Shown here piece after piece: positions 29,949 to 43,286 of a stretch of DNA of 64,000 nucleotides. The translations under genes and the position numbers were made by a program. The notes beneath the pieces were generated by a model that saw only the letters and a program-made list of their open reading frames with translations, had not been told where the DNA came from and searched no databases. Positions within the stretch are counted from its first letter, which is position 1; each line of letters starts with the position of its first letter. This DNA is from Acidimicrobiales bacterium (GTDB taxonomy: Bacteria; Actinomycetota; Acidimicrobiia; Acidimicrobiales; Aldehydirespiratoraceae): positions 17,909-81,908 of the forward strand of contig JAJCXZ010000059.1 in the NCBI GenBank assembly GCA_029263175.1, written 5' to 3'.

Positions 29949-30682
29949 TTCGCCGACTCCTGCTCGCCGGGCAGGTGCCCGGCCCGGTGACCGTCGGTCC
30001 AGTCCTCGGTCTGTGGGGCATCGGTGAGCCCGCCCAGGATCCGTAGCTGTGGAACCTCTCGCATGCTGCGCTTCATCTCCGCGAATCCGGGGAAGCCGGC
30101 GAGTTCCACTACAGCGTCCCAGAGCCGGAGGGCATCGGCGTCGTCGGGGACCCGCGAGATGACCGGGCCGAAGAACGACAGCCCGTCGGGCGGGTGGAAC
30201 GTGATGATCGGCGTGCCCACGTCTCGGCCGGTGCGGGAGAGCGCGAGATCCGACTCCTCATCGATCAGCTGATCCCACGACTCATCGTCGAGCGCTTCGG
30301 CGAAGCGGGTGGGAACGCCGGCCGCCTCGAGCACCTCGACCGCGTGCTCGGTGGTGCTCAGTTTGGTTCGCATCCCCGAGCCTGTGGGCAGGTCCCAGTA
30401 CGACTCGCCGTAGGCGGTCACCAGCGCGGCGATTCGTCCACGGCCGAGATCGGCGCGCACGGCGGCCGCGACCCGTAGGAAGCGCAGGCCGGCGGTGTGA
30501 CCGAATTCGTAGCCTCCGGGGAACTCGGTGGCGTAGTCCTTGTGTTTGTTGATGAGGCGCAGCGAGATGAACCTGTAGTCGACGTCGTAGTCGCGTTGGG
30601 CGGCAACCTTCTCGACCCACCGAGACGTGATCCAGGCAAACGGACAAACGGGGTCCCAGAAGAACTCGATGTCAGGCGTCAT
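29945..30682 (-). CDS. DsbA-family thioredoxin-fold protein (Rv2466c-like, monothiol CPFA variant)
   Basis: Track ORF 29945..30718 trimmed to ATG comp. 30680-30682 (MTPDIEFFWDPVCPFAWITSRWV...). The active site reads C-P-F-A rather than CxxC. Confidence 0.8.
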   Translation of the reverse strand: MTPDIEFFWDPVCPFAWITSRWVEKVAAQRDYDVDYRFISLRLINKHKDYATEFPGGYEFGHTAGLRFLRVAAAVRADLGRGRIAALVTAYGESYWDLPTGSGMRTKLSTTEHAVEVLEAAGVPTRFAEALDDESWDQLIDEESDLALSRTGRDVGTPIITFHPPDGLSFFGPVISRVPDDADALRLWDAVVELAGFPGFAEMKRSMREVPQLRILGGLTDAPQTEDWTDGHRAGHLPGEQESAN

Positions 30683-32081
30683 GGGGGAGTGATCCTTTCG
30701 CCGCCCGAAGGTAGCCATACGGCGTTGCCGCGGCGAAGTTGCTCACGCGACTCGTGTAGACATCGGCGTACTTCTCGACCTGGCGGGCGAAGAGGCTCTT
30801 GTCGACGCCGGCGCGCATCAACGGCCCCCACACGTCGTTGCCCTGCGCGGCGGCGGCCTGGGCCAGTGGTGCGATCTTCGCAGCGATCGCGGCGACCTCG
30901 GCGGCCGCGGTCTCGATCGAGGCGTCGAGCTTGTCGCGAGGCTTCTCCGCCACCACCCGGCGACGTCGCCGGAGCCGGAGTTGTGCGTGAGCCTGCTCGA
31001 GGCGGCCCTTCTCGAGCATCAGCTCGCTCAGTTGACGCTCGGTATCGGCAAAGGCTTCGGCGGCCTCGACCTCGTCTTCGAGCTCACGGGCGATCAGACA
31101 GGTGCGCCAGCGCAGGACATCCTTGGTGACGTGGACGTCGCCGAAGAGGTGGTCACCCACGTAGAGGAACTGTGATGGATCGTGCCCGAGCGATGACTCG
31201 ACCATGCGGGCGTTGCCGCCGTGATAGACCTCGCCACTCTCAAGGGCGCCGTTGTGGGGTTCGAGGTGCCCGAGCTCATCGTCGACCAGGCGGAAGATCG
31301 GGCCGCGCTCGGAGAAGAAGCGGGGCTTGGCCGCAGCCACGATCACGACATCGAAGAGGTCTCGCCATGTCTGGCCGTCGGGCATCGACTTGTTGAAGCA
31401 CCAGTTCATCATGCGCTCGGAGTACCACCACTCGGAGTTAGTGATCAGGAGCAGCTGCTTGCCGGCCAGGCGTTGGTCGGTCAGCGTCTCGATGATCCCG
31501 GGATCGAAGTCGACAAAGCGATCGGGATCGTCGACGATCTGCTGCTTGAGTGCGCCCTCCAGGTGAGCGGCACCAAGGGCCCGGTCGATCTCGCGGTAGA
31601 GCTGGAGATACGAGCTGATCCCGGCAAGGGGCTTCACGTCGTGGATCTCGATCAGCTGTGTCCACAGGGATGCACGGCTCAGCTCGAAGAGGGTGTTCAT
31701 GAACTCGAATCGGTCTTCGCCGAGATCGATCACGATCTCGGCGTAGACGTTGCGTTGCTCATCGAAGCTCAACGCCTCGTTTCCGTGCTGAACCTTCATC
31801 ACGTAGCCGAATCGGGTGGCCTTCACCAGGTTGCCGAGTTCGACGTCGAAGACCAGACCGAGTGTGAACGCACGAGGGTCGAACGTGAGCGACTCCACCG
31901 GCCAACCGCGCTCCGCCAGGCGTTGGCGGGCATGTTCGAAGGCGGCGCGTTCCCATTCGTCCACGTGGTAGTGGATGAGCGTGTAGTCCATGTCGTAGCC
32001 GATGGCCCGTACGCCGCGGAGGTTGAGCGTGCGATTGCAGTAGAGGTCGCGGCCGGGACTGGAGGTGAGGGGGTCTTCCAT
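30672..32081 (-). CDS. HAD-IG family 5'-nucleotidase
   Basis: Track ORF whose N-terminus LYCNRTLNLRGVRAIGYDMDYTLIHY matches the cytosolic 5'-nucleotidase (HAD-IG) signature. It has a coiled-coil-like C-terminus. Confidence 0.85.
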   Translation of the reverse strand: MEDPLTSSPGRDLYCNRTLNLRGVRAIGYDMDYTLIHYHVDEWERAAFEHARQRLAERGWPVESLTFDPRAFTLGLVFDVELGNLVKATRFGYVMKVQHGNEALSFDEQRNVYAEIVIDLGEDRFEFMNTLFELSRASLWTQLIEIHDVKPLAGISSYLQLYREIDRALGAAHLEGALKQQIVDDPDRFVDFDPGIIETLTDQRLAGKQLLLITNSEWWYSERMMNWCFNKSMPDGQTWRDLFDVVIVAAAKPRFFSERGPIFRLVDDELGHLEPHNGALESGEVYHGGNARMVESSLGHDPSQFLYVGDHLFGDVHVTKDVLRWRTCLIARELEDEVEAAEAFADTERQLSELMLEKGRLEQAHAQLRLRRRRRVVAEKPRDKLDASIETAAAEVAAIAAKIAPLAQAAAAQGNDVWGPLMRAGVDKSLFARQVEKYADVYTSRVSNFAAATPYGYLRAAKGSLPHDA

Positions 32082-32086
32082 TGCGC

Positions 32087-32536
32087 TCAGTCTCGCACTC
32101 GCAACGGCTCAATCGCGTCGACATAGTCGGCGAGGCGGGCCGCGACCTCGATCGAGGCTTCAGGATCTTCGGGGTCGGGTGGTTCCCAGACTTCAGAGAT
32201 TCGACGCCAGGAGTCCATACCGAGGAAGGGGCCGGCCTCGGCCTCGTCACCGAGGCCTTTCCGCCACTTCTTCTCCCTGGTCAGGAGGTGAACGAGGCAC
32301 GCCTCGTTTTCGGCAGGATCGCGATGCTCCGCGTGGAAGCCGATCTCCAACGCCATCTCGCCGTCCCGGCGGACGAGCTGTGCCTCGTAGTGTTCGCGAG
32401 CCGCCTGGCCGTCGTCGGCGCCGAACCACACCTTCAGACCACGCCGGTGCGCACTGGCATGAACGATGCCGTGATCGTCGTCGACGAAGCCCTCGAGGGC
32501 GTCGAGAACATGTTCGAAGAATCCGGGTTCGGCCAC
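32087..32536 (-). CDS. hypothetical acidic protein
   Basis: Track ORF with coding-like composition. The overlapping plus-strand ORFs are Arg-rich shadows. It is tightly packed between neighbouring minus-strand genes. Confidence 0.6.
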   Translation of the reverse strand: MAEPGFFEHVLDALEGFVDDDHGIVHASAHRRGLKVWFGADDGQAAREHYEAQLVRRDGEMALEIGFHAEHRDPAENEACLVHLLTREKKWRKGLGDEAEAGPFLGMDSWRRISEVWEPPDPEDPEASIEVAARLADYVDAIEPLRVRD

Positions 32537-32537
32537 G

Positions 32538-32957
32538 TCAGTTGATCTGGCCCGTCACGCTCACCGGTGTCACCCGAGCGACGAGTCGACCCTCGTTGAC
32601 CATGGCACGTCGGAATTCCGCCCAATCGGAGTGATCGCCTCCCGTCACTGCTTTGTAGACGGCAACGAGTTCGTCGGCTGTCGCATCGTCGGGCGCGGTG
32701 CAGACCGGCGAAAGGTCGACCGTGGCGTCGATGGATACATAGCTCCAGGCGCTCGGCTCGCTGATGTGCAGCACGACCCGGTTGTCGCGCCGCATGTTGA
32801 CGGTCTTTGCCCGACTGTCGGTGAGGGAGATGTTGATCGTGCCCTCCATGACCGCGTAGGCGATGTCAGATGATTGTGCGCGCCCGTCTCGCCGGAGTGT
32901 GATCAGCGTTGCGGTGCGGCGCCCGGTCGCCCAGGCCAGGGCTTCGGAAAGGTTCAT
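32538..32957 (-). CDS. PPOX-class (pyridoxamine 5'-phosphate oxidase-like) probable F420-dependent enzyme
   Basis: Track ORF. ATLITLRRDGRAQSSDIAYAV...RAKTVNMRRDNRVVLHI resembles the Rv1155-type PPOX family. Confidence 0.8.
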   Translation of the reverse strand: MNLSEALAWATGRRTATLITLRRDGRAQSSDIAYAVMEGTINISLTDSRAKTVNMRRDNRVVLHISEPSAWSYVSIDATVDLSPVCTAPDDATADELVAVYKAVTGGDHSDWAEFRRAMVNEGRLVARVTPVSVTGQIN

Positions 32958-33043
32958 CTCGACAGTCTCGCACTTCTGAGTCCTTCGACCTATTGGTCGA
33001 CGTGCTCCTCAGCTCGTGGGGCAGTTGCGCCGACGGTAGAGAC

Positions 33044-33394
33044 ATGAGCTGGAGACAACTCTCGGGATTGATCGCCGTTGCCGCGCTCGCTGGGTCGTGC
33101 GGTAGCTCTGCGCCTGATCCGCTGCCCGTGGCCGAACGTACCGTTGCGTCCACGACGACACTGGCTCCCGAGGACGACAGCGTCGCGACGTCGGCACTCT
33201 CGTCGGCGGCGGACGGCGAAGAGATCGTCGATCACGGCGACCTCGACCCGGAGGCCGTCGTCGTTGCGGCCGTGCTCATCGCCTCGGGCGGCGATCTCGA
33301 AGCGGCGATCGCCGACGGATGGATCACCGAGGCCGAGGCGGAAGCCGCTTTGGCCGGAATCGAAGACGGGTCGCTCGCGGCTCTACTCGACTGA
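33044..33394 (+). CDS. small lipoprotein
   Basis: Track ORF 32909..33394 trimmed to ATG 33044 (MSWRQLSGLIAVAALAGSCG, with a lipobox). No family recognised. Confidence 0.6.
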   Translation: MSWRQLSGLIAVAALAGSCGSSAPDPLPVAERTVASTTTLAPEDDSVATSALSSAADGEEIVDHGDLDPEAVVVAAVLIASGGDLEAAIADGWITEAEAEAALAGIEDGSLAALLD

Positions 33395-34636
33395 GCCCAA
33401 CGGCTCAACGGCGTCCAGCGCCGTTGGTCGTTGGAGCACAGGGACACCGGCGTCGGATTTGATCAGTGACGCGCGGGCAACGGCGCGGCCTCCCCACCGG
33501 CGCCGAATGTCATCCACGAGTCCGTCGAGCGCTTCGGTCGGCCTTCCCTCCTCGGGGAACCGGATCGCCAGCTGTACCGCATCGGGCCGGGCGAGCCCGC
33601 TGAACGTGACTCCAATGAGAGAACACCCGACACGGCCCAGACGGGTGCCGGGGCCGTGGGGCCCGTCGACGAGGGAACTCAGCAGATCGTCAGCGGTGGC
33701 AGTGAGGATCGCGGTGGACGCAGTGGGTTCGAGCAGGGTCCGCGATCGGCTTTCGTGACGCAGATCGGCGGTACGGAACCGAACCGTGACGGTGCGCGTG
33801 AGGCGCTCGGCCTTGCGCAGCCGGGCCGCGACCTTCTCGACGAGTCCGAGGAGGTCGGTTCGCAGTTCGCCGCGGGTGCGAACTCGGATGCCGAGTGCCC
33901 GCTGCGCGCCCATGGATCGGTCGCGCCGGGCCGTGTCGACCTTTCGGGGATCGAGGTTGTGGGCGAGGTCTCGAAGATGGCGTCCAGAGTGGCTGCCGAG
34001 CAGGGACTGCATCTCCGCTCGGCCACTCGATGCGAGATCGCCGACCGTCTCGACCCCGTGGTTTCGCAGCTTCTCGGAGGTGGCCGGCCCGACTCCCCAC
34101 AGGACTTCGACCGGAAGCGGGTGGAGGAATTCCCGCTCCCGGTCGGGATCAACAACGAGCAATCCATCGGGCTTGGACTGGGCGCTCGCCACCTTGGCCA
34201 GGAACTTGGTACGAGCCACGCCCACCGAGATCGGGAGGCCGACGTCGACCAGGACCCGGGTGCGTAGCTGAGCCGCGATGTCTGCGGGAGACCCGAAGAT
34301 TCGAAGCGCACCGGAAACGTCGAGGAAGGCCTCATCGACAGAGATTGGTTCGACCTCAGGGGTGAAGTCGTGGAACCGTTCGAACACGGCGGAGGAAGCC
34401 TCGCCATAGGCCTCCATCCGGGGCTCCACCACGATTGCGTGGGGGCACAACATCCGCGCTTGGCGGCCGTTCATGGCTGAACGAACGCCGTAGGCCTTGG
34501 CTTCGTAGCTGGCCGCGAGCACGACGCCGCCGCCGACAATGACGGGTCGGTCCCGAAGGCGAGGATTGTCGCGCTGCTCGACCGACGCGTAGAAGGAGTC
34601 GAGATCCGCATGAAGGATGTTCGCGACGCCGGGCAC
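33383..34636 (-). CDS. dinB: DNA polymerase IV (Y-family)
   Basis: Track ORF 33383..34672 has a TTG start. I prefer GTG comp. 34634-34636 (MPGVANILHADLDSFYASVEQRDNP...) because a LexA box occupies 34653-34666. The start remains uncertain, since no clear RBS is present. Confidence 0.85.
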   Translation of the reverse strand: MPGVANILHADLDSFYASVEQRDNPRLRDRPVIVGGGVVLAASYEAKAYGVRSAMNGRQARMLCPHAIVVEPRMEAYGEASSAVFERFHDFTPEVEPISVDEAFLDVSGALRIFGSPADIAAQLRTRVLVDVGLPISVGVARTKFLAKVASAQSKPDGLLVVDPDREREFLHPLPVEVLWGVGPATSEKLRNHGVETVGDLASSGRAEMQSLLGSHSGRHLRDLAHNLDPRKVDTARRDRSMGAQRALGIRVRTRGELRTDLLGLVEKVAARLRKAERLTRTVTVRFRTADLRHESRSRTLLEPTASTAILTATADDLLSSLVDGPHGPGTRLGRVGCSLIGVTFSGLARPDAVQLAIRFPEEGRPTEALDGLVDDIRRRWGGRAVARASLIKSDAGVPVLQRPTALDAVEPLGSVE

Positions 34637-34652
34637 ATTCGGAGTGTAGAAG

Positions 34653-34666
34653 CGAACAAACGTTCG
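34653..34666. promoter_or_regulatory. LexA (SOS/Cheo-type) box CGAACAAACGTTCG
   Basis: Perfect CGAAC-N4-GTTCG palindrome between dinB (start 34636, minus) and the divergent gene starting at 34708. Confidence 0.7.
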
Positions 34667-34707
34667 GTGCAAGCGGATGTTCGTTGTGCAGCGGGCATCA
34701 TGGCCAG

Positions 34708-35259
34708 ATGGCGACGCGGCGCTACGGAACGATAGTCAAACACCTCACCGACGACCCCGAGACGGCGGTGGAACTCGCGCAGAAGCTCTCCGACGACGTC
34801 CTCACCCATCTTGCGGCGGCGTTGCGCGACGAAGTGCGCCGGCGAGCAATCAGTGGCGGCAACCTCGAGGCGCTGATCGAGCAGGCGTTCGAGTCCGGCT
34901 TCGGGCGAGATGGTCTCGGCACCATGCCCTGGGTGGACGGATCGGTGATCGTGTGCCCAGGGTCGATCGTGGCGAAGAGTCGCACCAACCATCGATGTCG
35001 CTTCGTCAGTGTGGACGACGTCTGGATCTGGGAATCATCGGAGCTGATCCAAGAAGAGAAACTGTCTCATCCAGGCCGCGATGAGGGGTTCAAGGCCGTC
35101 GCCCTGCTGCCGGTCACCGAGGGGATGTCGCTCGACGTCGTCACCGGCAAAGCCCGCGCCGGTCAGCACTCGGTCGACCGAGTGGTCTCCTTCGAGGTTC
35201 GCAAGGGCGAACTCATCGAGGTCAGCCAGCGTCAGGTGAGCGGCCGAGGGATGCAGTAG
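34708..35259 (+). CDS. hypothetical protein divergent from dinB
   Basis: Track ORF 34684..35259 has a TTG start and was trimmed to the in-frame ATG 34708 (MATRRYGTIVKHLTDDPETAVELAQKL...). Composition is coding-like and no family was recognised. Confidence 0.6.
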   Translation: MATRRYGTIVKHLTDDPETAVELAQKLSDDVLTHLAAALRDEVRRRAISGGNLEALIEQAFESGFGRDGLGTMPWVDGSVIVCPGSIVAKSRTNHRCRFVSVDDVWIWESSELIQEEKLSHPGRDEGFKAVALLPVTEGMSLDVVTGKARAGQHSVDRVVSFEVRKGELIEVSQRQVSGRGMQ

Positions 35260-35266
35260 CGACCGC

Positions 35267-35851
35267 TCAGGCTGCGGGCGGTAGTTCGAAACTCTCGACC
35301 CGCTGAAGCACGTTGCGGTCGGTGTGCGGGAAGGGTTCGTCGTACTCCTTCATCACGAGGGTCGACGTTTCGTCATAGGTGAGGGTGTCGCCGTCCACGG
35401 AGAGGTTGAGTTCGTAGGCTGTGCAGCGGGCGTTGTTGAGCAGGTAGGTGTTCTGGGTGATGCCGTACTCGTCGCTGTCAGCATCGGCACGCAGGGTGAA
35501 CGAGGTGGCGTCGGGCTCGACTTCACCGCCGGCGAGGATCGCCGAGCCGCGAGGGATGACGAAACCACGCATCACGTGCTTGAGGGTGCTGCACCACAGC
35601 CAGTACCCGACTTCGGTGTGGAATGGGTCGTCTTCGCCGACACGCCAGGCGGCCATCTTGTAGTCGAGGCCATAAAGTCGCTGGCTGCCGTTGTCGACCG
35701 GACCGAACGGCTTGAACGTGATCTCCTCACGGTACGAAGTGTCGCCCGACTCGTCGTCGGCGTGGTGATGCGAGAAGTCGATGCCGCCGTTGCCATGCCA
35801 GACGCCTGCCAGCGCAGCGAGGGGGCCGAAGTGGTCTGTCTGTGTGCTCAT
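35267..35851 (-). CDS. nitrobindin-like heme-binding beta-barrel (DUF1794/FABP-like) protein
   Basis: Track ORF. The N-terminus FGPLAALAGVWHGNGGIDFS and the overall beta-rich pattern resemble the nitrobindin/THAP4-like family. Confidence 0.7.
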   Translation of the reverse strand: MSTQTDHFGPLAALAGVWHGNGGIDFSHHHADDESGDTSYREEITFKPFGPVDNGSQRLYGLDYKMAAWRVGEDDPFHTEVGYWLWCSTLKHVMRGFVIPRGSAILAGGEVEPDATSFTLRADADSDEYGITQNTYLLNNARCTAYELNLSVDGDTLTYDETSTLVMKEYDEPFPHTDRNVLQRVESFELPPAA

Positions 35852-35931
35852 ATGTCCGGACCATATCTGAGTTCTGGACTAAGTCCAAGTTCGGATTCAC
35901 TCTATTCCCGGTCGCTGGTACAGTCCTTTCG

Positions 35932-36345
35932 GTGCACACCTCGCTTCTCGATCGACTTCGCCTGCACGGCTATCGACTCACGGCGCAGCGTCGCGCCGTC
36001 GCTGAAGCCCTCGACGGCATCAATGTGCATCTGACCGCCGACGAGGTGCACGCTCGGGCTGCCGACATTCTTCCCGAGATCAGTCGGGCCACCGTCTACA
36101 GCACCCTTCACGAGCTCACCGAGATGGGCGAGATCCTCGAGTTGGGTATCGAGGGTCGTTCGAAGCGGTATGACCCCACAACCTCACCGCACAATCATCT
36201 GGTGTGTGATTCCTGTGGTGTGATCCACGATGTGCAGCACGGTGTGGCCGCACCGGAGTTGCCCCTCAACGAGGCCCACGGCATGGCCGTGCGCCGCGCC
36301 GAAGTCGTCTACCACGCCACCTGCGGAACGTGTTTGGCGAGCTGA
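35932..36345 (+). CDS. Fur-family transcriptional regulator
   Basis: Track ORF 35842..36345 trimmed to GTG 35932 (VHTSLLDRLRLHGYRLTAQRRAVAEAL...). It has a winged-helix N-terminus, HNHLVCDSCG and CGTC metal-site motifs. The stop overlaps the next gene by 16 nt. Confidence 0.85.
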   Translation: MHTSLLDRLRLHGYRLTAQRRAVAEALDGINVHLTADEVHARAADILPEISRATVYSTLHELTEMGEILELGIEGRSKRYDPTTSPHNHLVCDSCGVIHDVQHGVAAPELPLNEAHGMAVRRAEVVYHATCGTCLAS

Positions 36346-37364
36346 CCCTCCCCGTCGGCGTCGCGGAAGCGGCCGCCACGGCATGGAGCGACCTCGGCCG
36401 CCCCGGCCGTCAGCTCACCGGTGTGGAGCGGATTGCCGTCGCCACGGCCGCTCGAGAAGCCACACCGCGTCCCGTGTGGGATCGCAACGGCGGACTCGAT
36501 GCTCTGCATGCTGGCATGGGGGATCGCCGCGCCGTCCTCGTGGCCTTGGCCGCCATCTTCGCCACCGAGGCCTCACTCATCGACCGGGAGCTCGTCACCC
36601 GGCTGCAGGCCGAGATCGGCGACACCAGCTACGCCGAGACCGCGGCGATCGTTGCTCAGGTGATCACCGTCGACCAGTTCTGCATCTCGCTCGGCATCGA
36701 TACCGCCACGCTCCCCCCAGCAGAGGCCGGGGAGCCGTCTCGCGAGCGTCCCGAAGGAATGGGTGACGCCGGCGGGCACATCGAGATGACCGTGCCGTTC
36801 CGTGGCCCCAACGTGGCCCGGTCGCTCAGCCTCGCGGCCGAAGATCATCTGCGCTGGCGAGGCCTCGTGCTGTCGATGTACAGCCGTGATGCGTTCGAGG
36901 AGATGGTCTGGACGGATCGGGCGCTCACCCGCCCGCAGGTCGAACTGTTGGCGGCACGCACCAGCTCACTCAACGAGTGTTTCTATTGAACGTCTGCTCA
37001 CGTCACGCTGCTCGGTGCGAGCAGCGCCGCCACCGACGACGAGGTTCAACTCGCCGCCGCCGTTGGCGGCGGCGATGCTGGGGTCGGTCACGGCGACGAG
37101 CTCGCGGCGTTCGCCGAGGCCGCCTGGCGACGAGATGACACCCTCGCCGATGCTCGAGAGGCCCTGCGCCGTGGCGTCGGCGACGATGGCGTGATCGAGG
37201 CCTCGCTGACCGTCGCCATATTCCGATCGCTCAATCTGGCCGCTGATGCCTCGGGTATCCCGCTCGATGAATCGTTCGCCGGTCCGACGCGTGGATTCGC
37301 CGATGCGCTCGGCATCGATCAATACGCAACGGCGAAGAACTCGCCGGACTTCAGCCGCTCCTAG
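36330..37364 (+). CDS. AhpD-like / carboxymuconolactone-decarboxylase-family protein, candidate selenoprotein (TGA 36987-36989 read as Sec)
   Basis: Track ORF 36330..36989 ends ...RPQVELLAARTSSLNECFY at a TGA. The same frame continues for 124 sense codons (TSAHVTLLGASS...GVIEASLTVAIFRSLNLAADASGIPLDE...) to TAG 37362-37364. Joined, it reads E-x11-C-x2-[TGA]-x3-H, the AhpD motif. A SECIS-like hairpin lies 16 nt downstream, and the distal part has no independent start or RBS. Confidence 0.6.
37006..37026 (+). promoter_or_regulatory. SECIS-like hairpin (recoding signal candidate)
   Basis: Perfect 8-bp stem cgctgctc (37006-37013) / gagcagcg (37019-37026) with apical loop GGUGC. It starts 16 nt after the in-frame UGA. 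A possible 4-bp lower stem pairs 37001-37004 with 37035-37038. Confidence 0.5.
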
Positions 37365-37612
37365 CCGCGTGCTGCGATCCGCCGGAGCGGCGGTTCGCTC
37401 TTCGGGGGAACCTTCCTCGGCGGCAGGGAGGCGATGAGGTCGCTGGTCGCTTCGGTGATGATGGCGACCGCGGCCTCGAACGCCGCTTCGGTGGTGGCGG
37501 AGGTTTTTTGCACCCCACTCACCTTCCGACAGTACTGGCGAGCAGCGGCTTCGACTTCTTCGGCGGTGGCGACGGGCTCGAGCCCACGCAGGGTTGTGAT
37601 GTTGCGGCACAT
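37361..37612 (-). CDS. DUF2277-like protein
   Basis: Track ORF. MCRNITTLRGLEPVATAEEVEAAARQYCRKVSG matches the conserved DUF2277 N-terminus. Confidence 0.8.
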   Translation of the reverse strand: MCRNITTLRGLEPVATAEEVEAAARQYCRKVSGVQKTSATTEAAFEAAVAIITEATSDLIASLPPRKVPPKSEPPLRRIAARG

Positions 37613-37641
37613 GTCGCGACCGTAGCCTCGGTGACGCCCTG

Positions 37642-40185
37642 ATGACGCACCTGCAAGACTGTATGACCATGACCAACAGTGGCTTCATGACCCTCACCGC
37701 ACGCAAGCTTCTCATTGCTCTGCTGGCCACCCTTGCGCTGGCCCCACAGCCGGCGTCTGCACAAGACGATGTGGATCCGGCCGCGCTCGAGGCCGTGCTT
37801 GCCGGCGCCGGCCTCACCGTCGACGACGTCGAGGCGCAGGACGCGAACTCCTCGTGGGATGGACTCGGGATGTTCTCCGAGGACACGACCCGGCTCCTCG
37901 GCGCCCTGTCGACCGAATCTGCTGTCGAGACGTATGCGTTTGGCGACAGCAAGGACAATCCGCCGATCATCAACCCGTCCGGTGGTCAACCGACCGGGTC
38001 CGGCACCGCACTACTCACGGTTCCCGGCGACTGGACGGCGCCGGCATCCGGCGTCAACGGCTCCGTGGCGTTCACGCAAACGCCCGGAGCCCAAGTGGCG
38101 CCGGGAGACGAAGTCTTCTTCATGTGGACCGAATTCGACAGTGACTACGACTTCAGCGACCGCACCCTGACGATCAACGAAGGGTTCCCGCTGACCGTGC
38201 CCGGGCTCCCGGTATGGAACTCCACCTTTGCCGGCGACACCTGGGAAGGCGCCAACCTCATCCCCAACGCGACCTTCGACGGAACGACGCTGAACCTCGA
38301 CGTGAAGAGCTACGCGCCGCCACAGTCGTTCCCGCTCGTCGATCTTCCCGGGTTCTACTACCGGTCCGGCAACGTCGTGGGTGTGGCGCTCGGCGCCGAT
38401 GCCCTCCGTGCCTACATCGACGCGGCGGCGAGCGCCGGGGCTGCGGCGACCGATGATGGGCAACCACAGACGCTCCTCTACACCGGCGACGCCAAGGACA
38501 CCAACGCCCAGGACGTCGATGCACTGACCCTCCTCCTGGTGAGGTACTACCTCCACCTTGCCGAGGGCGGGTTCTTCCTGCCCGGGTTCATCGTGTTGAC
38601 GGTTGTTCTCATAGTGGCGATGAATCTTTCGCCGTTCGATCTCGCTTCCCTCATCCTGCAGGACATCTTCTTCTCGGCAACGTCAACCACGTCAACCACG
38701 ACCACCACGACAACCACGACCACGACGACCACGGTGCAACCGGCCGAATCCGAATCAACCGACACCGGCACGGCGACGACACCCACTCCGGTGTCGGTCT
38801 CCACCGGTGGCGGGCTCGGGGTCTGGTGGATCTTTGTTCTTCTGCTCGGGATCATCCTGGTCTTGCTCGGCCTGCTGCTGGTACTGCGCCGCCGTCGCCC
38901 GCCCGAAGAGGTCTACATTTTGCCGCCCGACGGCCCGCCGGGATACCCCGAGCCGGAGGACGAAGACGACGACCCCCGTGATGTTTCGCCGCCGACGATC
39001 TTCGGTGAGGAGATCCTCCCCCGCACGATTTGTGGCTGGGAGGTCAAGTTCAACGACGGCGGCAACTGGGTCGACGTGAAATCACTCAACCCGGGCGAAG
39101 CTCCGTGCTGCGTCTACAACATCGAGGTCGAAACCAGGACCCTCTTCCACGACGCAGTGGCCTCGTTCCGCCAGGACGTCCAGCCGGAGCGCCTCTACAT
39201 CCCCGCCCTCGAGAGTCGAACCAACGGTCTGAACTGGTTCTCGGCATCGGGCACCCGAAGCGGCCCGTTCGGACGCCAGGACTGGCAGCATGGCAACGGC
39301 AATCCGATCGACCAGAGCCAGGTCGAGGCTCCCTCCGCCTACTGGCAACAGGGACAGGGCGAGGAGCGCCCTGAGGTCACCGCCCAGATGGCCCATATCG
39401 AGGTGAGCCGGGTCACCGCGTGGCTCGACTCTGGATGCCCGGGCCACGCCAACACGTTCAACACCAGCAGCCATGCCGAAGTGAACGTCATGGCCACCCA
39501 CGAGTGCTCGAATGACAATCCTGGTCCGGCCTGTCCCGTCGAGCTCAACGCCTATGGCGGGTTCGTCGGCCTGGCGTTCGGCGATCAACAGCTGAGCTTC
39601 GGTGATGCCATCGGCACCGACTTCGACGAACTCGAGCGGTGGGCCCGGGACTACGCCGAGCTCACCCCCGAGCAGCGCGAGCAGGCTCCCCCACCGCCGC
39701 TTTCGGCGATCGGCACCTGGGACGGTCACGACCACGATGTTCGCGATCGCATGACCTACGAGAGCGCTAACGGCGACGCCGAGCATCCGCTGAAGGACGG
39801 CGACTTCTGGGAGGCATTCATCATCACGATGTCGGTCCACTTGGCCGGCCAGCTGGTGCCGGTCGCGGTGTGGCCGACGACCGAGCGTGTCTCCACCTGG
39901 ATCGAGGCCGGATTCGATTGGGGAATCAAGCTGTCGGCCACGATGGAGAAGGAGCCATGTGACGCGGCCGGTGAATGCACCGGACATCCGGGCCGCCAGT
40001 GCCATGATCAGCCCGGCTTCACGCTCAACTTGTCGGCGAGCGACAACTCGATCCAGGCCGGCGGCAAAACGAAGAACATCGAGAGGCCCAGTCCGCCGAG
40101 CCCGGACGGGCTGACAATCCCCCGTATCAACCACCTGTGGGAGGTCGACGGGCGCCCGCCGATCGGGCTGCCGGGAATGCCCTAG
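37642..40185 (+). CDS. large secreted/membrane protein of unknown function (signal peptide, ecto-domain, poly-Thr linker, TM, Cys/His-rich C-terminal domain)
   Basis: Track ORF. The signal-like segment LLIALLATLALAPQPASAQDD suggests the start may be an inner ATG at about 37687. It has a TM helix LGVWWIFVLLLGIILVLLGLLLVLRRRR followed by about 440 aa with no motif I recognise. Confidence 0.7.
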   Translation: MTHLQDCMTMTNSGFMTLTARKLLIALLATLALAPQPASAQDDVDPAALEAVLAGAGLTVDDVEAQDANSSWDGLGMFSEDTTRLLGALSTESAVETYAFGDSKDNPPIINPSGGQPTGSGTALLTVPGDWTAPASGVNGSVAFTQTPGAQVAPGDEVFFMWTEFDSDYDFSDRTLTINEGFPLTVPGLPVWNSTFAGDTWEGANLIPNATFDGTTLNLDVKSYAPPQSFPLVDLPGFYYRSGNVVGVALGADALRAYIDAAASAGAAATDDGQPQTLLYTGDAKDTNAQDVDALTLLLVRYYLHLAEGGFFLPGFIVLTVVLIVAMNLSPFDLASLILQDIFFSATSTTSTTTTTTTTTTTTTVQPAESESTDTGTATTPTPVSVSTGGGLGVWWIFVLLLGIILVLLGLLLVLRRRRPPEEVYILPPDGPPGYPEPEDEDDDPRDVSPPTIFGEEILPRTICGWEVKFNDGGNWVDVKSLNPGEAPCCVYNIEVETRTLFHDAVASFRQDVQPERLYIPALESRTNGLNWFSASGTRSGPFGRQDWQHGNGNPIDQSQVEAPSAYWQQGQGEERPEVTAQMAHIEVSRVTAWLDSGCPGHANTFNTSSHAEVNVMATHECSNDNPGPACPVELNAYGGFVGLAFGDQQLSFGDAIGTDFDELERWARDYAELTPEQREQAPPPPLSAIGTWDGHDHDVRDRMTYESANGDAEHPLKDGDFWEAFIITMSVHLAGQLVPVAVWPTTERVSTWIEAGFDWGIKLSATMEKEPCDAAGECTGHPGRQCHDQPGFTLNLSASDNSIQAGGKTKNIERPSPPSPDGLTIPRINHLWEVDGRPPIGLPGMP
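38680..38733 (+). repeat. Thr/Ser codon tract (18 codons)
   Basis: The DNA acgtcaaccacgtcaaccacgaccaccacgacaaccacgaccacgacgaccacg encodes TSTTSTTTTTTTTTTTTT. Confidence 0.9.
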
Positions 40186-40187
40186 GT

Positions 40188-42971
40188 TCAGGCGCCGGTG
40201 AGGATCTTGAGAATGGCGACACCGTGCTTCTCGATCTTCACCGGTCCGATGCCTTTCACTCGCAGAAGTTCGGCGTCGTCGGTCGGTCGTCGAGCGATGA
40301 GATCGTCGAGCGTGGCATCGTTGAAGATGACGTAGGCCGGTACTCCGCCGGCCGATGCCTCCGCAGACCGGTAGGTGCGCAGGGCTTCTCGAAGTGCGGT
40401 GTCGTCGGCGCTCAGCGGGGCTACGGCGGGCTTGGCTCGATCGCGCCGCGGGGGTGATGGCGGCGTCGGCGGCGCGGCGGCCGGATCAACGGGTCGGGTG
40501 AGCTCGGCGATGAACGGCGATGGGGGAGTGCCGCTCACGATCGTGAGCGACTCGCTACAGCGGGTCACCGCCACGTGGAAGACCCGGCGCTCCTCTTCAC
40601 GGTCGACGGCCAACCGGTGCGGGAACAGGTCGGCGCCTGCCTCGTGGATGATCACATGGGGCCATTCCCGCCCCTTGACCCGATGCACGGTGGACAAGCG
40701 CACGCCGCCCGGGTCGGCTTTGCGGTGCTGAAGCCGCTGCAGGAGCCAGGCCGGGAACGCCTCGGGGTCGGGCTGATGGCGGGCCACCGCGAGGAGCGCG
40801 GCCAGGTCATCGCTGTGCGCGGATCGGTCGACGCTGCGGCGGCTGGCATCGAGGCGTTGCTCAAGAGCGGCACCGAGGCCCAATTCGTCTCGAACGAACA
40901 GCAGGACCTGCTCGGTGGTGCCGTCATCGTCGACCAGTTGGCGCAGACGCATCAGATCAGCGACGAAGTCGGTGACCTTGATCTGGTCGCGCTCCTCTCG
41001 CAGATATTCGGCCAACCGCATCAGATCTTTCGGGCTCGACCGCTCGCTCATCCACTCGATCACCCGCGCGCTCAGCCCTCGAGGTGGTCGACGAGCCGCG
41101 CTGAGCATCTCGTGGCCGGGAAGAGCTCGTTCCGGGGCCGTGGCGAGTCGGAGCCACGCCAGCGCGCCGGCCACCCCGGTGCGCTGAGTGAAGGCGTCGT
41201 CGATGATCGCGGTTGTGCCGACCCCCGACTCTTCGAGTGTGAGCATCGGGCCGAGCAGGGTGGAGTTGACCCGGGTGAGGACGGCGATGTCTCGCGGCGA
41301 AACGCCGTCGCCAAGCAAGGCGGCGACCCGGTCGTAGGTCGCGGCGACGGCGTCGGGCTCCTGGCGAATGAGCACCGCGTCGTCTACCCCGCCATCAGCG
41401 GTTTCGGCCGGCCGGATCTTCTTCAGGATCCTGGTGCGGTTGTGGCTCAGCAGGCTTGTGGCGGCATCGACCACCGGTGCCGGACAGCGATAGTTGACCT
41501 CGAGATCGTGGGCCGTGGCTGACCAGAACAGCTCATCGAAGTCGATCAGCCATGCCGGCGACGCTCCGGAGTAGCCGTAGATCGTCTGGTCATCGTCGCC
41601 GACGGCGAAGACGTGGGCTGCCGGCCCCGCGAGGAGGCGGATGAGCAGTACGTGAGCGGGAGTGAGATCCTGGAACTCGTCGACGAGGAGAACTTGACAG
41701 GCTCGTCGGGCCGCGTTGCGAGCGGGAACATCGGTGAGCAGAACCTCGATGGCTCCGAGGATCTGCTCGTCGAAGTCAACCGAACCCTGGCGAGCCAGCA
41801 CGTCGCGGTATTGCGGAAGCACGTTGGCGAAGTCGCGAACGTCGCCGCCGAACTCTTGCTCGACCGCGGTGGGTGATCGCAGGCCCAGGCGGCAGGCGCC
41901 GAGCGCTTCGATCCATACCGCCATCGGGTCAGACATGGCCTGGCGTCGCCGGCTGACGAGCTGGTCGAGCACTGAGCGCACCCCCCGCTCGTCGATCACC
42001 CGTGGCCGGCCTCGACCGGAGGGAGCAGCAAACGGGGCCGTGCCGGAGATGATCGCCAGGGCAAGACTGTTGAGCGTGCGGATCTGAAGGCCCGCGAGAT
42101 CTCGGGTTCGTTCCTGCATCTCCTCTCGGGCGCGCACGTTGAACGCGAGCAGGCACACACCCTCCGCGGCGATGCCGCGATCGCGAATGAGATGGCGAGC
42201 TCGCTCGGTGAGCACTCTGGTCTTGCCCGATCCGGCCGGGGCGATGATGCGAGCGGCCCCGCCGGAGTGTGAAACCGCAGCCTCCTGGTCCGGCGCGAGG
42301 TCAGCCATCGACGGCGCCGCACCGAGCGCGGCGAGGCTGCCAACGGCAAGGTTGGCCGCGGGGATGACCGGCGCCTCCAGCACGTCGAGGTCGAGCCAGT
42401 GGAGCTGCCCGCCGTCACACCACATCGGCCCGGCCGGGGTGTCGACATCGCCGGGGCCCTCGGTGGCGACGGTTGCGCCCGCGGCGACGGCAAGATCGAT
42501 GGCGCGGATGGTGGGAGCGTCCGGATTTCTGGCATCAACCGAGTGACCGAGGACGAGGTGACGCAGGAGTTCGCCCCGGAGATCGGTGTCAGGCCCGAGC
42601 ATCCAAAAGTCGGTCTGGAGCACGGGATCGGCCGGTGGGAGTTCGCCCGAGAGCTCGATGACCATTGCCTCGCGCCGTTGCCAGGCTTCGATCAGGCGGT
42701 CGGGAATCAGCGTGTCGGACCCGGTGACTTCGATGCGTTCGGCATCCGCCCACGGTGCGGGCACGGCCTGACCCGGCAGCACGATGAGGGAACGACCGAG
42801 TGAGGGGTGGCCGGCCAGGCGACCCCAGTCGGCAGGGAGGGCGACGACCCTTTCGCGGGCCAGGCGCGATTCGTCGGCAAAGAGCGATTCGTCGGCTGGG
42901 CGGTCGCCGGTGCACGCCCGAACCTCGGCCACGGTGGCGTGGCGATCACCGCAGTGCCCGCAGGCGATCAT
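40188..42971 (-). CDS. UvrD-like superfamily-1 helicase with N-terminal extension and C-terminal HRDC domain
   Basis: Track ORF 40188..43214 trimmed to ATG comp. 42969-42971 (MIACGHCGDRHATVAEVRAC...). Walker A APAGSGKTRVL lies at about residue 335. The C-terminus YVIFNDATLDDLIARRPTDDAELLRVKGIGPVKIEKHG is HRDC-like. The start is uncertain. Confidence 0.85.
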   Translation of the reverse strand: MIACGHCGDRHATVAEVRACTGDRPADESLFADESRLARERVVALPADWGRLAGHPSLGRSLIVLPGQAVPAPWADAERIEVTGSDTLIPDRLIEAWQRREAMVIELSGELPPADPVLQTDFWMLGPDTDLRGELLRHLVLGHSVDARNPDAPTIRAIDLAVAAGATVATEGPGDVDTPAGPMWCDGGQLHWLDLDVLEAPVIPAANLAVGSLAALGAAPSMADLAPDQEAAVSHSGGAARIIAPAGSGKTRVLTERARHLIRDRGIAAEGVCLLAFNVRAREEMQERTRDLAGLQIRTLNSLALAIISGTAPFAAPSGRGRPRVIDERGVRSVLDQLVSRRRQAMSDPMAVWIEALGACRLGLRSPTAVEQEFGGDVRDFANVLPQYRDVLARQGSVDFDEQILGAIEVLLTDVPARNAARRACQVLLVDEFQDLTPAHVLLIRLLAGPAAHVFAVGDDDQTIYGYSGASPAWLIDFDELFWSATAHDLEVNYRCPAPVVDAATSLLSHNRTRILKKIRPAETADGGVDDAVLIRQEPDAVAATYDRVAALLGDGVSPRDIAVLTRVNSTLLGPMLTLEESGVGTTAIIDDAFTQRTGVAGALAWLRLATAPERALPGHEMLSAARRPPRGLSARVIEWMSERSSPKDLMRLAEYLREERDQIKVTDFVADLMRLRQLVDDDGTTEQVLLFVRDELGLGAALEQRLDASRRSVDRSAHSDDLAALLAVARHQPDPEAFPAWLLQRLQHRKADPGGVRLSTVHRVKGREWPHVIIHEAGADLFPHRLAVDREEERRVFHVAVTRCSESLTIVSGTPPSPFIAELTRPVDPAAAPPTPPSPPRRDRAKPAVAPLSADDTALREALRTYRSAEASAGGVPAYVIFNDATLDDLIARRPTDDAELLRVKGIGPVKIEKHGVAILKILTGA

Positions 42972-43040
42972 GGGTTGGTGTCCAGACAAGGCGTCACGGT
43001 CGGCAACATAGGCGACGGGTGTGACAGGTAGGGTCCAGCC

Positions 43041-43286
43041 ATGGCACTCCTTGGATGGCTCGTCATCGGATTTGTGGTCGGAATACTGGCTCGGATCATC
43101 GTTCCCACCGGTCGAACGTACGGCTGCCTTGGCACGATCCTTCTCGGGATCGTTGGGTCCATCGTCGGCGGCACACTTGCTTCGGTCCTGGCCGGGGATG
43201 GTTTCGACGTCCAACCGGCGGGATTCATCGGCTCGGTGATCGGTGCCGTGGCGGTACTCGTCGTGCTGCGGAGCCGCGGCAAGTGA
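43041..43286 (+). CDS. GlsB/YeaQ/YmgE-family small membrane protein
   Basis: Track ORF of 81 aa with Gly-rich TM segments (GWLVIGFVVGILARIIVPTGRTYGCLGTILLGIVGSIVGG). Confidence 0.85.
   Translation: MALLGWLVIGFVVGILARIIVPTGRTYGCLGTILLGIVGSIVGGTLASVLAGDGFDVQPAGFIGSVIGAVAVLVVLRSRGK

What the first reader, a model, noticed from the sequence alone, without database searches (positions are those of the whole stretch)
36330..37364. In-frame TGA at the catalytic Cys position of an AhpD/CMD-family gene plus a SECIS-like hairpin: candidate selenoprotein
The ORF track stops at TGA 36987-36989 after ...RPQVELLAARTSSLNECFY. Reading on in the same frame gives 124 sense codons with GC-rich third positions, ending at TAG 37362-37364 (TSAHVTLLGASSAATDDEV...GDDGVIEASLTVAIFRSLNLAADASGIPLDESF...). 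This distal part has no plausible start codon or RBS of its own. The only competing ORF over it is an Arg-rich antisense shadow (36966..37973). Joined across the TGA, the protein reads E-x11-C-F-Y-[TGA]-T-S-A-H. That is the E-x11-C-x2-C-x3-H signature of AhpD-like alkylhydroperoxidase / carboxymuconolactone decarboxylase proteins, with TGA exactly where the second redox Cys should be. The distal part also looks like the usual C-terminal helices of that domain. Sixteen nt after the TGA there is a perfect 8-bp stem (37006-37013 / 37019-37026) with a GGUGC apical loop. As I recall the bacterial SECIS models, they require a stem-loop a couple of dozen nt after UGA with G in the first loop positions, which this geometry fits. 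From memory, AhpD-like proteins are among the families with known Sec-containing members. No selA/selB/selC/selD is present in this window.
Basis: partly seen in the sequence, partly recalled or inferred. Interest (0 to 1): 0.85.

Follow-up and report, generated by a model that had tools for sequence, protein, structure and literature searches.

The report
Known AhpD-related selenoprotein gene, mis-annotated

Summary
Every detail of the observation checks out. These include the TGA at 36987-36989, 124 further sense codons to TAG 37362-37364, the E205-x11-C217-x2-[TGA]220-x3-H224 motif, and an 8-bp hairpin 16 nt after the TGA.

- The joined protein scores 241 bits (cut-off 175) against NCBIfam NF041238, [quoted passage not shown].
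- All 80 related genome loci carry TGA at this codon, never TAA, TAG, TGC or TGT. The real terminators vary.
- The distal frame is under purifying selection (dN/dS 0.08-0.14).
- The hairpin is 97% paired across 75 distinct sequences, with compensatory changes and an invariant loop G.
- Full-length homologues of 347-383 aa have Cys (CFYC) where the window has TGA.

The family was first reported in 2005 as "hypothetical protein 1" of the Sargasso Sea selenoproteome.

One test could not be run.

Verdict: a real selenoprotein gene that is already known. Its value is limited to correcting a truncated 219-aa annotation. A 16-nt overlap with a Fur/PerR-like gene is a minor lineage-specific detail.

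The parts
36330..36986 (+). Proximal coding part (codons 1-219) of the AhpD-related selenoprotein. It holds an N-terminal helical domain, a linker, and the start of the AhpD/CMD domain with E205 and C217.
   Evidence: ORF list and translation. NF041238 matches residues 11-333. Homologues start at the same place.
36987..36989 (+). In-frame TGA, the predicted selenocysteine codon (U220), at the second position of the CxxU redox motif.
   Evidence: TGA in 82/82 sequences: the window, its duplicate contig L001 and 80 related loci. It aligns with Cys in PDB AhpD-like proteins and in full-length Cys forms P0070, P0075 and P0101.
36990..37364 (+). Distal coding part (codons 221-344, including H224) plus the true terminator TAG 37362-37364.
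   Evidence: The frame is open for 119-155 codons in all complete loci but one (L056, 39 codons). dN/dS is 0.08-0.14 against L002, L003, L084 and L085, compared with about 2-4 in the four frames whose third positions do not coincide with the sense frame. Pfam CMD and NF041238 hits run through it.
37006..37026 (+). Bacterial SECIS-type hairpin within the coding sequence. The arms are 37006-37013 and 37019-37026 and the apical loop is 37014-37018 (GGUGC). The loop G at 37015 is invariant in the family.
   Evidence: Folding. 97% of cells are paired in 75 distinct sequences, and 3 of 8 pairs show changes on both sides; 0/500 shuffles reach the observed pairing. Column 29 G is invariant. All 148 Ser codons in the 3' arm are AGY, against 30% AGY among Ser codons in window genes. 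The hairpin is absent in register from three TGC (Cys) forms.
35932..36345 (+). Fur-family (PerR/Irr-like) regulator gene. Its stop overlaps the selenoprotein start by 16 nt, so the two are probably co-transcribed and translationally coupled.
   Evidence: PF01475 appears on the called gene of the identical contig L001. NCBIfam best hits are PerR/Irr/Fur models, all below their cut-offs. The gene is present upstream only in the closest relatives L002, L003, L084 and L085.

Best explanation
Positions 36330-37364 encode one 344-residue selenoprotein of the curated family NF041238 (AhpD_rel_CFYUT, 'alkylhydroperoxidase-related (seleno)protein'). This family is 'hypothetical protein 1' of the Sargasso Sea selenoproteome.

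Shown here:
- UGA 36987-36989 is a conserved sense position.
- It is followed by a conserved, covarying hairpin with a G-containing apical loop 24 nt after the UGA.
- The downstream 124 codons are under purifying selection.
- The codon aligns with the second Cys of the CxxC motif of AhpD-fold proteins.

Inferred from the established bacterial Sec pathway:
- SelB carrying Sec-tRNA(Sec) binds the hairpin while the ribosome is at the UGA and inserts selenocysteine.

Inferred from the M. tuberculosis AhpD and P. aeruginosa PA0269 literature:
- The C-terminal AhpD/CMD domain uses the relay E205-C217-Y219-U220-H224 for selenol/thiol-based reduction of a peroxide, a sulfenic acid or a disulfide on a partner.
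- A C217-U220 selenenylsulfide is formed and then re-reduced.

In this sublineage the gene sits directly behind, and overlaps, a Fur/PerR-like regulator gene. This suggests expression linked to peroxide or metal stress. The actual substrate is unknown.
For: - Family: NF041238 gives E 2.2e-71 and 241 bits against a cut-off of 175, covering residues 11-333. Pfam CMD gives 27.4 bits against 23, spanning residues 189-254 across the TGA.
- Literature: NF041238 is listed as a CxxU selenoprotein, 'hypothetical protein 1, Sargasso Sea' (PMC13188914). The original description is PMC1088965.
- Codon: TGA in 82/82 sequences across Acidimicrobiia, Acidobacteriota, Myxococcota and others, while the real terminators vary among TAG, TGA and TAA.
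- Independent assembly: a Logan assembly of run SRR15505516 has the identical TGA.
- Distal frame: dN/dS is 0.084, 0.139, 0.129 and 0.112 against L002, L003, L084 and L085. This is as low as the proximal part, which gives 0.14.
- Residues between the TGA and any possible restart: T-[ST]-[AS]-H is conserved, with H invariant. The window has no start codon there.
- SECIS: 97% paired, compensatory changes at 3 pairs, invariant loop G, and AGY-only Ser codons.
- Cys homologues: full-length P0070, P0075 and P0101 carry CFYC aligned end to end. Twelve further Acidimicrobiales Cys forms of 298-351 aa were found, some named '(seleno)protein' by NCBI. They use TGC and lack the in-register hairpin.
- Structure: PDB 6k40 and 2oyo align across the TGA with U at the second Cys. 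A model of Cys form P0101 (pLDDT 80) hits AhpD/CMD-fold structures.
- Relay residues: defined for AhpD (E118, C130, H132, C133, H137) and PA0269 (E36, C48, Y50, C51, H55) in PMC3141380.
- Class-level plausibility: Sec machinery is reported in another order of the same class, Acidimicrobiia (bioRxiv 10.64898/2026.04.03.716425).
Against: - selA, selB, selD and tRNA-Sec were not found in the 64-kb window or in about 1.3 Mb of flanks of related loci. The rest of this genome could not be examined, so Sec decoding in this organism is inferred, not shown.
- The single-sequence fold of the SECIS region is not better than shuffled sequence (z = -0.48).
- Stem conservation is partly confounded by the conserved Leu-Leu...Ser-Ser residues.
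- No AhpC-type partner gene is nearby, and no biochemical data exist for this family, so the catalytic role is by analogy only.
- Foldseek E-values are only about 1e-2, although the probability is 1.0.
Confidence: 0.93

Rival explanations
1. The TGA is a genuine terminator. The product is a 219-aa protein ending ...NECFY, and the downstream 124 codons are untranslated or form a separate small gene.
For: All 26 database homologues are annotated as ending at ...CFY. Many database entries of 95-150 aa start at a Met six codons after the TGA. TGA is an ordinary terminator for about half of the long ORFs in the window.
Against: - The window and about a third of homologues have no start codon at that Met position (ACG, ATC or GGG instead).
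- The four residues between the TGA and that position, including the catalytic His, are conserved.
- The stop is always TGA, never TAA or TAG, in 82/82 sequences.
- Family HMMs and PDB homologues span the junction.
- A truncated protein would lack the second redox residue and His, and half of the AhpD fold.
- Full-length Cys forms exist.
Confidence: 0.02
2. The gene is a relic. The lineage of the window has lost Sec decoding, so the gene is truncated in vivo even though the family is a selenoprotein family.
For: No Sec machinery genes are in the window, and Sec use is patchy among bacteria (PMC1794560, listed).
Against: - The distal frame and the SECIS hairpin are intact.
- Against the nearest relative (L084, dS 0.26) the distal part shows 18 synonymous and 7 non-synonymous differences, giving dN/dS 0.13.
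- The hairpin is identical apart from flanking changes.
- A non-translated tail would accumulate stops and frameshifts.
Confidence: 0.03
3. Sequencing or assembly error, or a recent nonsense mutation (TGC/TGT to TGA) in an ordinary Cys protein. In other words, a pseudogene.
For: A single-base change from TGC or TGT gives TGA. Cys forms of the family exist.
Against: TGA is found in all 80 related species-level genomes, in two closer metagenome contigs, and in a separate assembly of the same sequence. The co-occurring hairpin is specific to the TGA forms.
Confidence: 0.01
4. UGA is read through by another route, such as near-cognate Trp or Cys insertion or a reassigned code, rather than by SelB-dependent Sec insertion.
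For: Translation through the codon is well supported, but the identity of the inserted residue was not measured.
Against: - TGA terminates 19 of 34 long GC3-rich ORFs in the window, so the code is standard.
- The aligned residue in homologues is Cys, the usual Sec counterpart.
- A conserved stem-loop with a loop G at bSECIS distance has no role in simple read-through.
- The family is curated as a selenoprotein.
Confidence: 0.01

Closest known systems
NCBIfam NF041238, AhpD_rel_CFYUT, alkylhydroperoxidase-related (seleno)protein. This is 'hypothetical protein 1' of the Sargasso Sea selenoproteome (Zhang, Fomenko and Gladyshev 2005, PMC1088965; equated in PMC13188914).
   Same: Equivalog-level HMM match over the whole length (241 bits against 175). 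It has the exact C-F-Y-U-T motif, a CxxU redox pair, and a SECIS hairpin immediately downstream. Both Sec and Cys forms exist.
   Different: Nothing of substance. In this sublineage the gene is fused in an overlapping arrangement behind a Fur/PerR-like gene, which most family members lack.
AhpD-like 1 (COG2128/TIGR01926) and AhpD-like 2/CMD (PF02627) selenoproteins of marine metagenomes (PMC2398784).
   Same: AhpD/CMD fold, a CxxU motif with Sec at the second position, and abundance in aquatic bacteria.
   Different: Those are single-domain proteins of about 180-200 aa. This family has an extra N-terminal helical domain of about 135 residues. It scores far below the TIGR01926 cut-off (32.9 bits against 81.8).
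Mycobacterium tuberculosis AhpD and P. aeruginosa PA0269 (PDB 2ijc), and D. radiodurans AhpD-like protein (PDB 6k40).
   Same: The proton-relay constellation Glu-x11-Cys-x-(His/Tyr)-Cys-x3-His is shared. The window has E205, C217, Y219, U220 and H224, with Tyr as in PA0269.
   Different: Sec replaces the second Cys. Sequence identity is only about 20-25%. No adjacent ahpC was found. Activity is untested.
E. coli fdhF-type bacterial SECIS.
   Same: A stem-loop inside the coding region just 3' of UGA. Its small apical loop holds an invariant G followed by G or U. The loop starts 24 nt after the UGA.
   Different: The stem is perfect, and no bulged U is evident. SelB binding is untested.

Membership tests
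NF041238 AhpD_rel_CFYUT (seleno)protein | Whole-protein HMM score above the curated cut-off, with full-length coverage | tested here: met
   241 bits against a cut-off of 175, E 2.2e-71, residues 11-333 on profile positions 5-356 of 357. Cys was substituted for U in the query.
NF041238 AhpD_rel_CFYUT (seleno)protein | C-F-Y-U-T signature | tested here: met
   C217-F218-Y219-TGA220-T221, read from the sequence. C, F and Y are invariant in the homologues.
Bacterial selenoprotein gene | In-frame UGA aligned with Cys in homologues | tested here: met
   Cys occupies that column in P0070, P0075 and P0101 and in PDB 6k40, 2oyo and 3c1l.
Bacterial selenoprotein gene | UGA conserved among orthologues, with the downstream frame conserved as protein | tested here: met
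   82/82 sequences have TGA. Distal dN/dS is 0.08-0.14.
Bacterial selenoprotein gene | SECIS stem-loop immediately 3' of UGA with G in a small apical loop | tested here: met
   The 8-bp stem begins 16 nt after the UGA and the loop is GGUGC. Across 75 sequences it is 97% paired, 3 pairs covary and the loop G is invariant. No dedicated bSECIS predictor was available. Rfam returned no match anywhere in the window at gathering thresholds.
Bacterial selenoprotein gene | selA, selB, selC (tRNA-Sec) and selD present in the same genome | not testable with these tools
   All are absent from the 64-kb window and from the flanks of related loci. The rest of the source genome could not be fetched, because the only contig returned is a 7-kb duplicate.
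Bacterial selenoprotein gene | Selenium actually incorporated at the UGA | not testable with these tools
   This needs 75Se labelling or mass spectrometry.
AhpD/CMD fold family (PF02627) | Pfam hit above the gathering score | tested here: met
   27.4 bits against 23, residues 189-254.
AhpD/CMD fold family (PF02627) | Glu...Cys-x-x-Cys...His proton-relay residues | tested here: met
   E205, C217, U220 and H224 are present, plus Y219 as in PA0269. All are invariant in the alignments.
AhpD/CMD fold family (PF02627) | All-helical AhpD fold | tested here: met
   The AF2 model of Cys-form homologue P0101 has pLDDT 80 and pTM 0.86. Its top Foldseek PDB hits are all AhpD/CMD proteins with probability 1.0 and TM on the target of 0.52-0.75, though E is only about 1e-2. 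The model is of a 35%-identical homologue, not of the window protein.
AhpC/AhpD alkylhydroperoxidase system | Adjacent or co-conserved AhpC peroxiredoxin partner, and AhpC-reducing activity | tested here: not met
   There is no AhpC homologue in the window. Only 2 of the roughly 85 related loci have one, 5-8 kb away. Activity is not testable. The protein should therefore not be called AhpD proper, only AhpD-related.

The most novel reading that the evidence does not exclude
In this Acidimicrobiales sublineage a Fur/PerR-type regulator gene has been inserted directly upstream of the selenoprotein gene and overlaps it by 16 nt. This may form a peroxide- or metal-sensing regulator-selenoprotein operon. 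If the regulator controls the pair, it would give the first functional handle on a selenoprotein family whose substrate has been unknown since 2005. The two-lobed model, which resembles Sestrin2, would then hint at a sestrin-like sulfinic/peroxide reductase role.
Probability: 0.25. Interest if true: 0.3.

Novelty: already known. Interest (0 to 1): 0.15.

Why it matters
The practical value is correct annotation. The deposited protein for this gene is a 219-aa fragment (P0001, source ncbi). Public protein collections also hold many split halves of this family. Such fragments hide a catalytic selenocysteine and inflate the count of 'hypothetical' proteins.

The gene also marks its host, an uncultured Acidimicrobiales-type actinobacterium, as a likely selenium user. 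It adds nothing new in kind, because the family, its CxxU motif and its SECIS have been published since 2005 and are curated in NCBIfam.

Tried and rejected
- Second candidate: I scanned the window for other in-frame TGAs flanked by coding-like sequence. The only other hit (42801, +) is the antisense shadow of the 1008-aa UvrD/HRDC helicase gene 40188..43214 and was rejected.
- Sec machinery: tblastn with E. coli SelA, SelB and SelD, plus ARAGORN, over the window and all fetched loci found nothing. The one exception was a weak GTPase hit in L076.
- Rfam: the gathering-threshold scan of the window gave no match.
- Source genome: I tried to reach the 116-kb source contig through the look-up of encoding contigs, but only an identical 7-kb Logan contig was returned.
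- Conserved operon idea: Fur + selenoprotein as a family-wide operon was rejected. Fur is upstream only in the closest relatives.
- Antisense gene idea: the 335-aa antisense ORF 36966..37973 as a real gene was rejected. The antisense frames are open in only 37, 37 and 4 of 81 loci. Its low dN/dS in one antisense frame is the usual mirror of the sense frame.
- AhpC partner: a search found none nearby.
Full report
**1. The observation**

- ORF 36330..36989 (+, GTG start, 219 aa) ends ...RTSSLNECFY at TGA 36987-36989.
- Translation of 36330-37364 in one frame gives a single internal stop, then 124 sense codons (TSAHVTLLGASS...), then TAG 37362-37364.
- The motif read from the sequence is E205 (36942-44), C217 (36978-80), TGA220 and H224 (36999-37001). 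This is E-x11-C-x2-U-x3-H.
- The distal part has no usable start. The first in-frame start codon is GTG 37191, which gives only 57 aa.
The arms are 37006-13 and 37019-26, the loop is GGUGC, and it lies 16 nt after the TGA. It folds at -14.9 kcal/mol.
- As a single sequence the 81-nt region does not fold better than shuffles (z = -0.48). On the other hand, only 0.9% of positions in this 65.6% GC window have a perfect 8-bp hairpin starting 8-30 nt downstream.

**2. What the gene is**

With Cys substituted for the TGA, the joined protein matches two family models.
- Pfam CMD (PF02627): residues 189-254, across the TGA, 27.4 bits against a gathering score of 23.
- NCBIfam NF041238, 'AhpD_rel_CFYUT, alkylhydroperoxidase-related (seleno)protein', an equivalog model: E 2.2e-71, 241 bits against a cut-off of 175, residues 11-333 on profile positions 5-356 of 357.

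The model's name carries the window's motif, C-F-Y-U-T. [quoted passage not shown] The original paper described 'hypothetical protein 1' as a new selenoprotein family with a conserved CXXU motif, Cys homologues and a SECIS-like stem-loop (PMC1088965). The family is therefore already known and curated.

**3. Comparative evidence that the TGA is decoded**

*Database homologues.* A search returned 26 homologues at 42-100% identity. All were about 194-264 aa, and all ended exactly at ...LN[EQ]CFY. Taken alone, this could mean genuine termination.

*Related loci.* I fetched the DNA of 80 related loci from species-level genomes. These come from Acidimicrobiia and other Actinomycetota, from Acidobacteriota (Thermoanaerobaculia, Ca. 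Multivorans, Holophagales), and from one bin each labelled Myxococcota, Opitutales and Gammaproteobacteria.
- The codon after CFY is TGA in 82/82 sequences (the window, its duplicate L001 and the 80 loci). It is never TAA, TAG, TGC or TGT.
- It is followed by conserved T-[ST]-[AS]-H and an open frame of 119-155 codons. L056 is the exception at 39 codons, which looks like a frameshift, and L047 runs off its contig.
- The real terminators vary among TAG, TGA and TAA.

*Selection on the distal part.*

| Compared with | Distal dN/dS | Note |
|---|---|---|
| L002 | 0.084 | proximal part 0.143 |
| L003 | 0.139 | proximal part 0.141 |
| L084 | 0.129 | nearest relative, dS 0.26 |
| L085 | 0.112 | |

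The two other sense frames and two of the three antisense frames give ratios of about 2-4. The remaining antisense frame gives 0.13-0.23 because its third codon positions coincide with those of the sense frame.

*Cys forms.* A full scan of 1.84 billion representative proteins with the distal 124 aa found 401 hits.
- Most are ORFs of 95-150 aa that start at a Met six codons after the TGA. Gene callers have evidently split the gene in two.
- The window and about a third of homologues have Thr, Ile or Gly at that position, so a restart cannot explain the conservation.
- Three hits are full-length (347-383 aa) and read CFYC. They align end to end with the joined window protein, with Cys in the TGA column. 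E205, C217, F218, Y219 and H224 are invariant.
- A further search found 11 more full-length or nearly full-length Cys forms (298-351 aa). Those that carry a name are from Acidimicrobiales or Actinobacteria MAGs, and NCBI names two of them 'alkylhydroperoxidase-related (seleno)protein'.

**4. The SECIS element**

In an ungapped alignment of 75 distinct sequences starting at the TGA, columns 20-27 pair with columns 33-40.
- 97% of cells form a standard pair. Sliding the partner columns gives 15-68%, and 0/500 shuffles reach the observed value.
- Three pairs carry changes on both sides: C-G to U-A in six sequences, and G-C to A-U twice at each of two pairs.
- The G at column 29 in the loop is invariant and is followed by G or U.
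- The stem is built from Leu-Leu and Ser-Ser codons, so protein conservation contributes. Codon choice, however, shows selection at the RNA level: all 148 Ser codons of the 3' arm are AGY, whereas AGY makes up 30% of Ser codons in the window's long genes.
- Three Cys forms use TGC, have Met-Ala in place of Ser-Ser, and lack the in-register hairpin. Their energies are -4.5, -11.1 (a different pairing) and -1.2 kcal/mol, against -14.9 for the window.
- The geometry fits the published description of bacterial SECIS elements: a small apical loop with a conserved G, immediately downstream of the UGA. The loop starts 24 nt after the UGA.
- No dedicated bSECIS predictor was available. The Rfam scan at gathering thresholds returned no match anywhere in the window.

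**5. Fold and likely chemistry**

- Solved AhpD-like proteins align across the junction with U220 on the second Cys. The best is D. radiodurans 6k40, which reads LNrCvYCavsH (E 3.9e-7). 2oyo and 3c1l also align.
- An AlphaFold model of Cys form P0101 has pLDDT 80.3 and pTM 0.86 and is all-helical. For one domain, its top PDB matches are AhpD/CMD-fold proteins: Bmp8 debrominase, 6k40, 2oyo, 2prr, PA0269 and S. pneumoniae AhpD. These have probability 1.0 but E of only about 1e-2.
- Over its full length the model matches Sestrin2 at TM 0.40-0.45.
- The AhpD relay is Glu118, Cys130, His132, Cys133 and His137. PA0269 has Glu36, Cys48, Tyr50, Cys51 and His55 (PMC3141380). The window has E205, C217, Y219, U220 and H224.
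- By analogy, which is inference only, U220 is the reactive nucleophile and C217 the resolving residue.
- No AhpC partner is nearby, so 'AhpD-related' is the correct label rather than AhpD.

**6. Genomic context**

- A Fur-family gene lies directly upstream. Its longest ORF is 35842..36345, and it is called as 35932..36345 on the identical contig. It carries PF01475, and its best NCBIfam hits are PerR/Irr/Fur models below their cut-offs. It overlaps the selenoprotein start by 16 nt.
- This arrangement occurs only in the closest relatives: L002, L003, L084 and L085. In L004-L006 the THAP4-like heme-binding gene is the upstream neighbour instead.
- Other neighbours are an Rv2466c-like mycothiol-dependent reductase, a 5'-nucleotidase, a PNPOx-like protein, a DinB-type polymerase, DUF2277, an 847-aa protein with no Pfam match, and a UvrD/HRDC helicase.

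**7. What could not be shown**

- selA, selB, selD and tRNA-Sec are absent from the window and from about 1.3 Mb of related flanks.
- Sec machinery is reported as universal in Actinomarinales, another order of the class Acidimicrobiia (bioRxiv 10.64898/2026.04.03.716425). This makes the trait plausible for the class, but it does not demonstrate it for this genome.
- TGA is otherwise an ordinary terminator here, ending 19 of 34 long GC3-rich ORFs.

**8. Verdict**

The gene is a member of an already published and curated selenoprotein family, so it is not novel. The useful outcome is to re-annotate 36330-37364 as one CDS with a Sec transl_except at 36987-36989. Interest is low (0.15). The only slightly unusual feature is the lineage-specific overlap with a Fur/PerR-like regulator gene.

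Noticed in passing
window 35932-36345 (+); also L002, L003, L084, L085: A Fur-family (PerR/Irr-like) regulator gene overlaps the selenoprotein start codon by 16 nt. The arrangement exists only in the closest relatives. More distant family members have a THAP4-like heme-binding gene directly upstream instead.
   Followed up: partly
public protein collections: This selenoprotein family is stored almost entirely as split fragments. N-terminal pieces end at ...CFY. C-terminal pieces of 95-150 aa start at a Met six codons after the TGA ('MLLRASS...'). 401 representative clusters match the distal part.
   Followed up: partly
model of P0101 (Cys-form homologue): The full-length model resembles human Sestrin2, which has two AhpD-like lobes, at TM 0.40-0.45 and probability 0.94-0.97. 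This suggests the N-terminal domain of about 135 residues may be a second, degenerate AhpD-like lobe. The top single-domain hit is the CMD-family debrominase Bmp8.
   Followed up: no
window 37642-40185 (+): This 847-aa ORF has strong coding signal, no Pfam match, a run of 14 Thr and a hydrophobic segment. It is probably a secreted or membrane-anchored protein of unknown function.
   Followed up: no
L004 (CAXMSE010000039.1, labelled Gammaproteobacteria): It carries a 63%-identical copy of the selenoprotein gene with the same THAP4-like and DUF2277 neighbours as the Acidimicrobiia loci. It is likely a mis-binned or mislabelled contig rather than a gammaproteobacterial gene.
   Followed up: no
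window 29945-35851: A cluster of stress-related genes lies upstream: an Rv2466c-like mycothiol-dependent reductase (DsbA-like), a PNPOx-like protein, a DinB/IMS translesion polymerase, and a THAP4-like heme-binding (nitrobindin-type) protein. This fits a redox or damage-response neighbourhood.
   Followed up: partly
window 42801 (+): This second in-frame TGA is flanked by coding-like GC3 signal. It is the antisense shadow of the 1008-aa UvrD/HRDC helicase gene 40188..43214 (-), not a second selenoprotein candidate.
   Followed up: yes
L056:8279: In this Acidimicrobiales homologue the frame after the TGA closes after 39 codons with a Pro/Thr/Ser-rich tail. This looks like a frameshift, caused either by an assembly error or by decay of the gene.
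   Followed up: no
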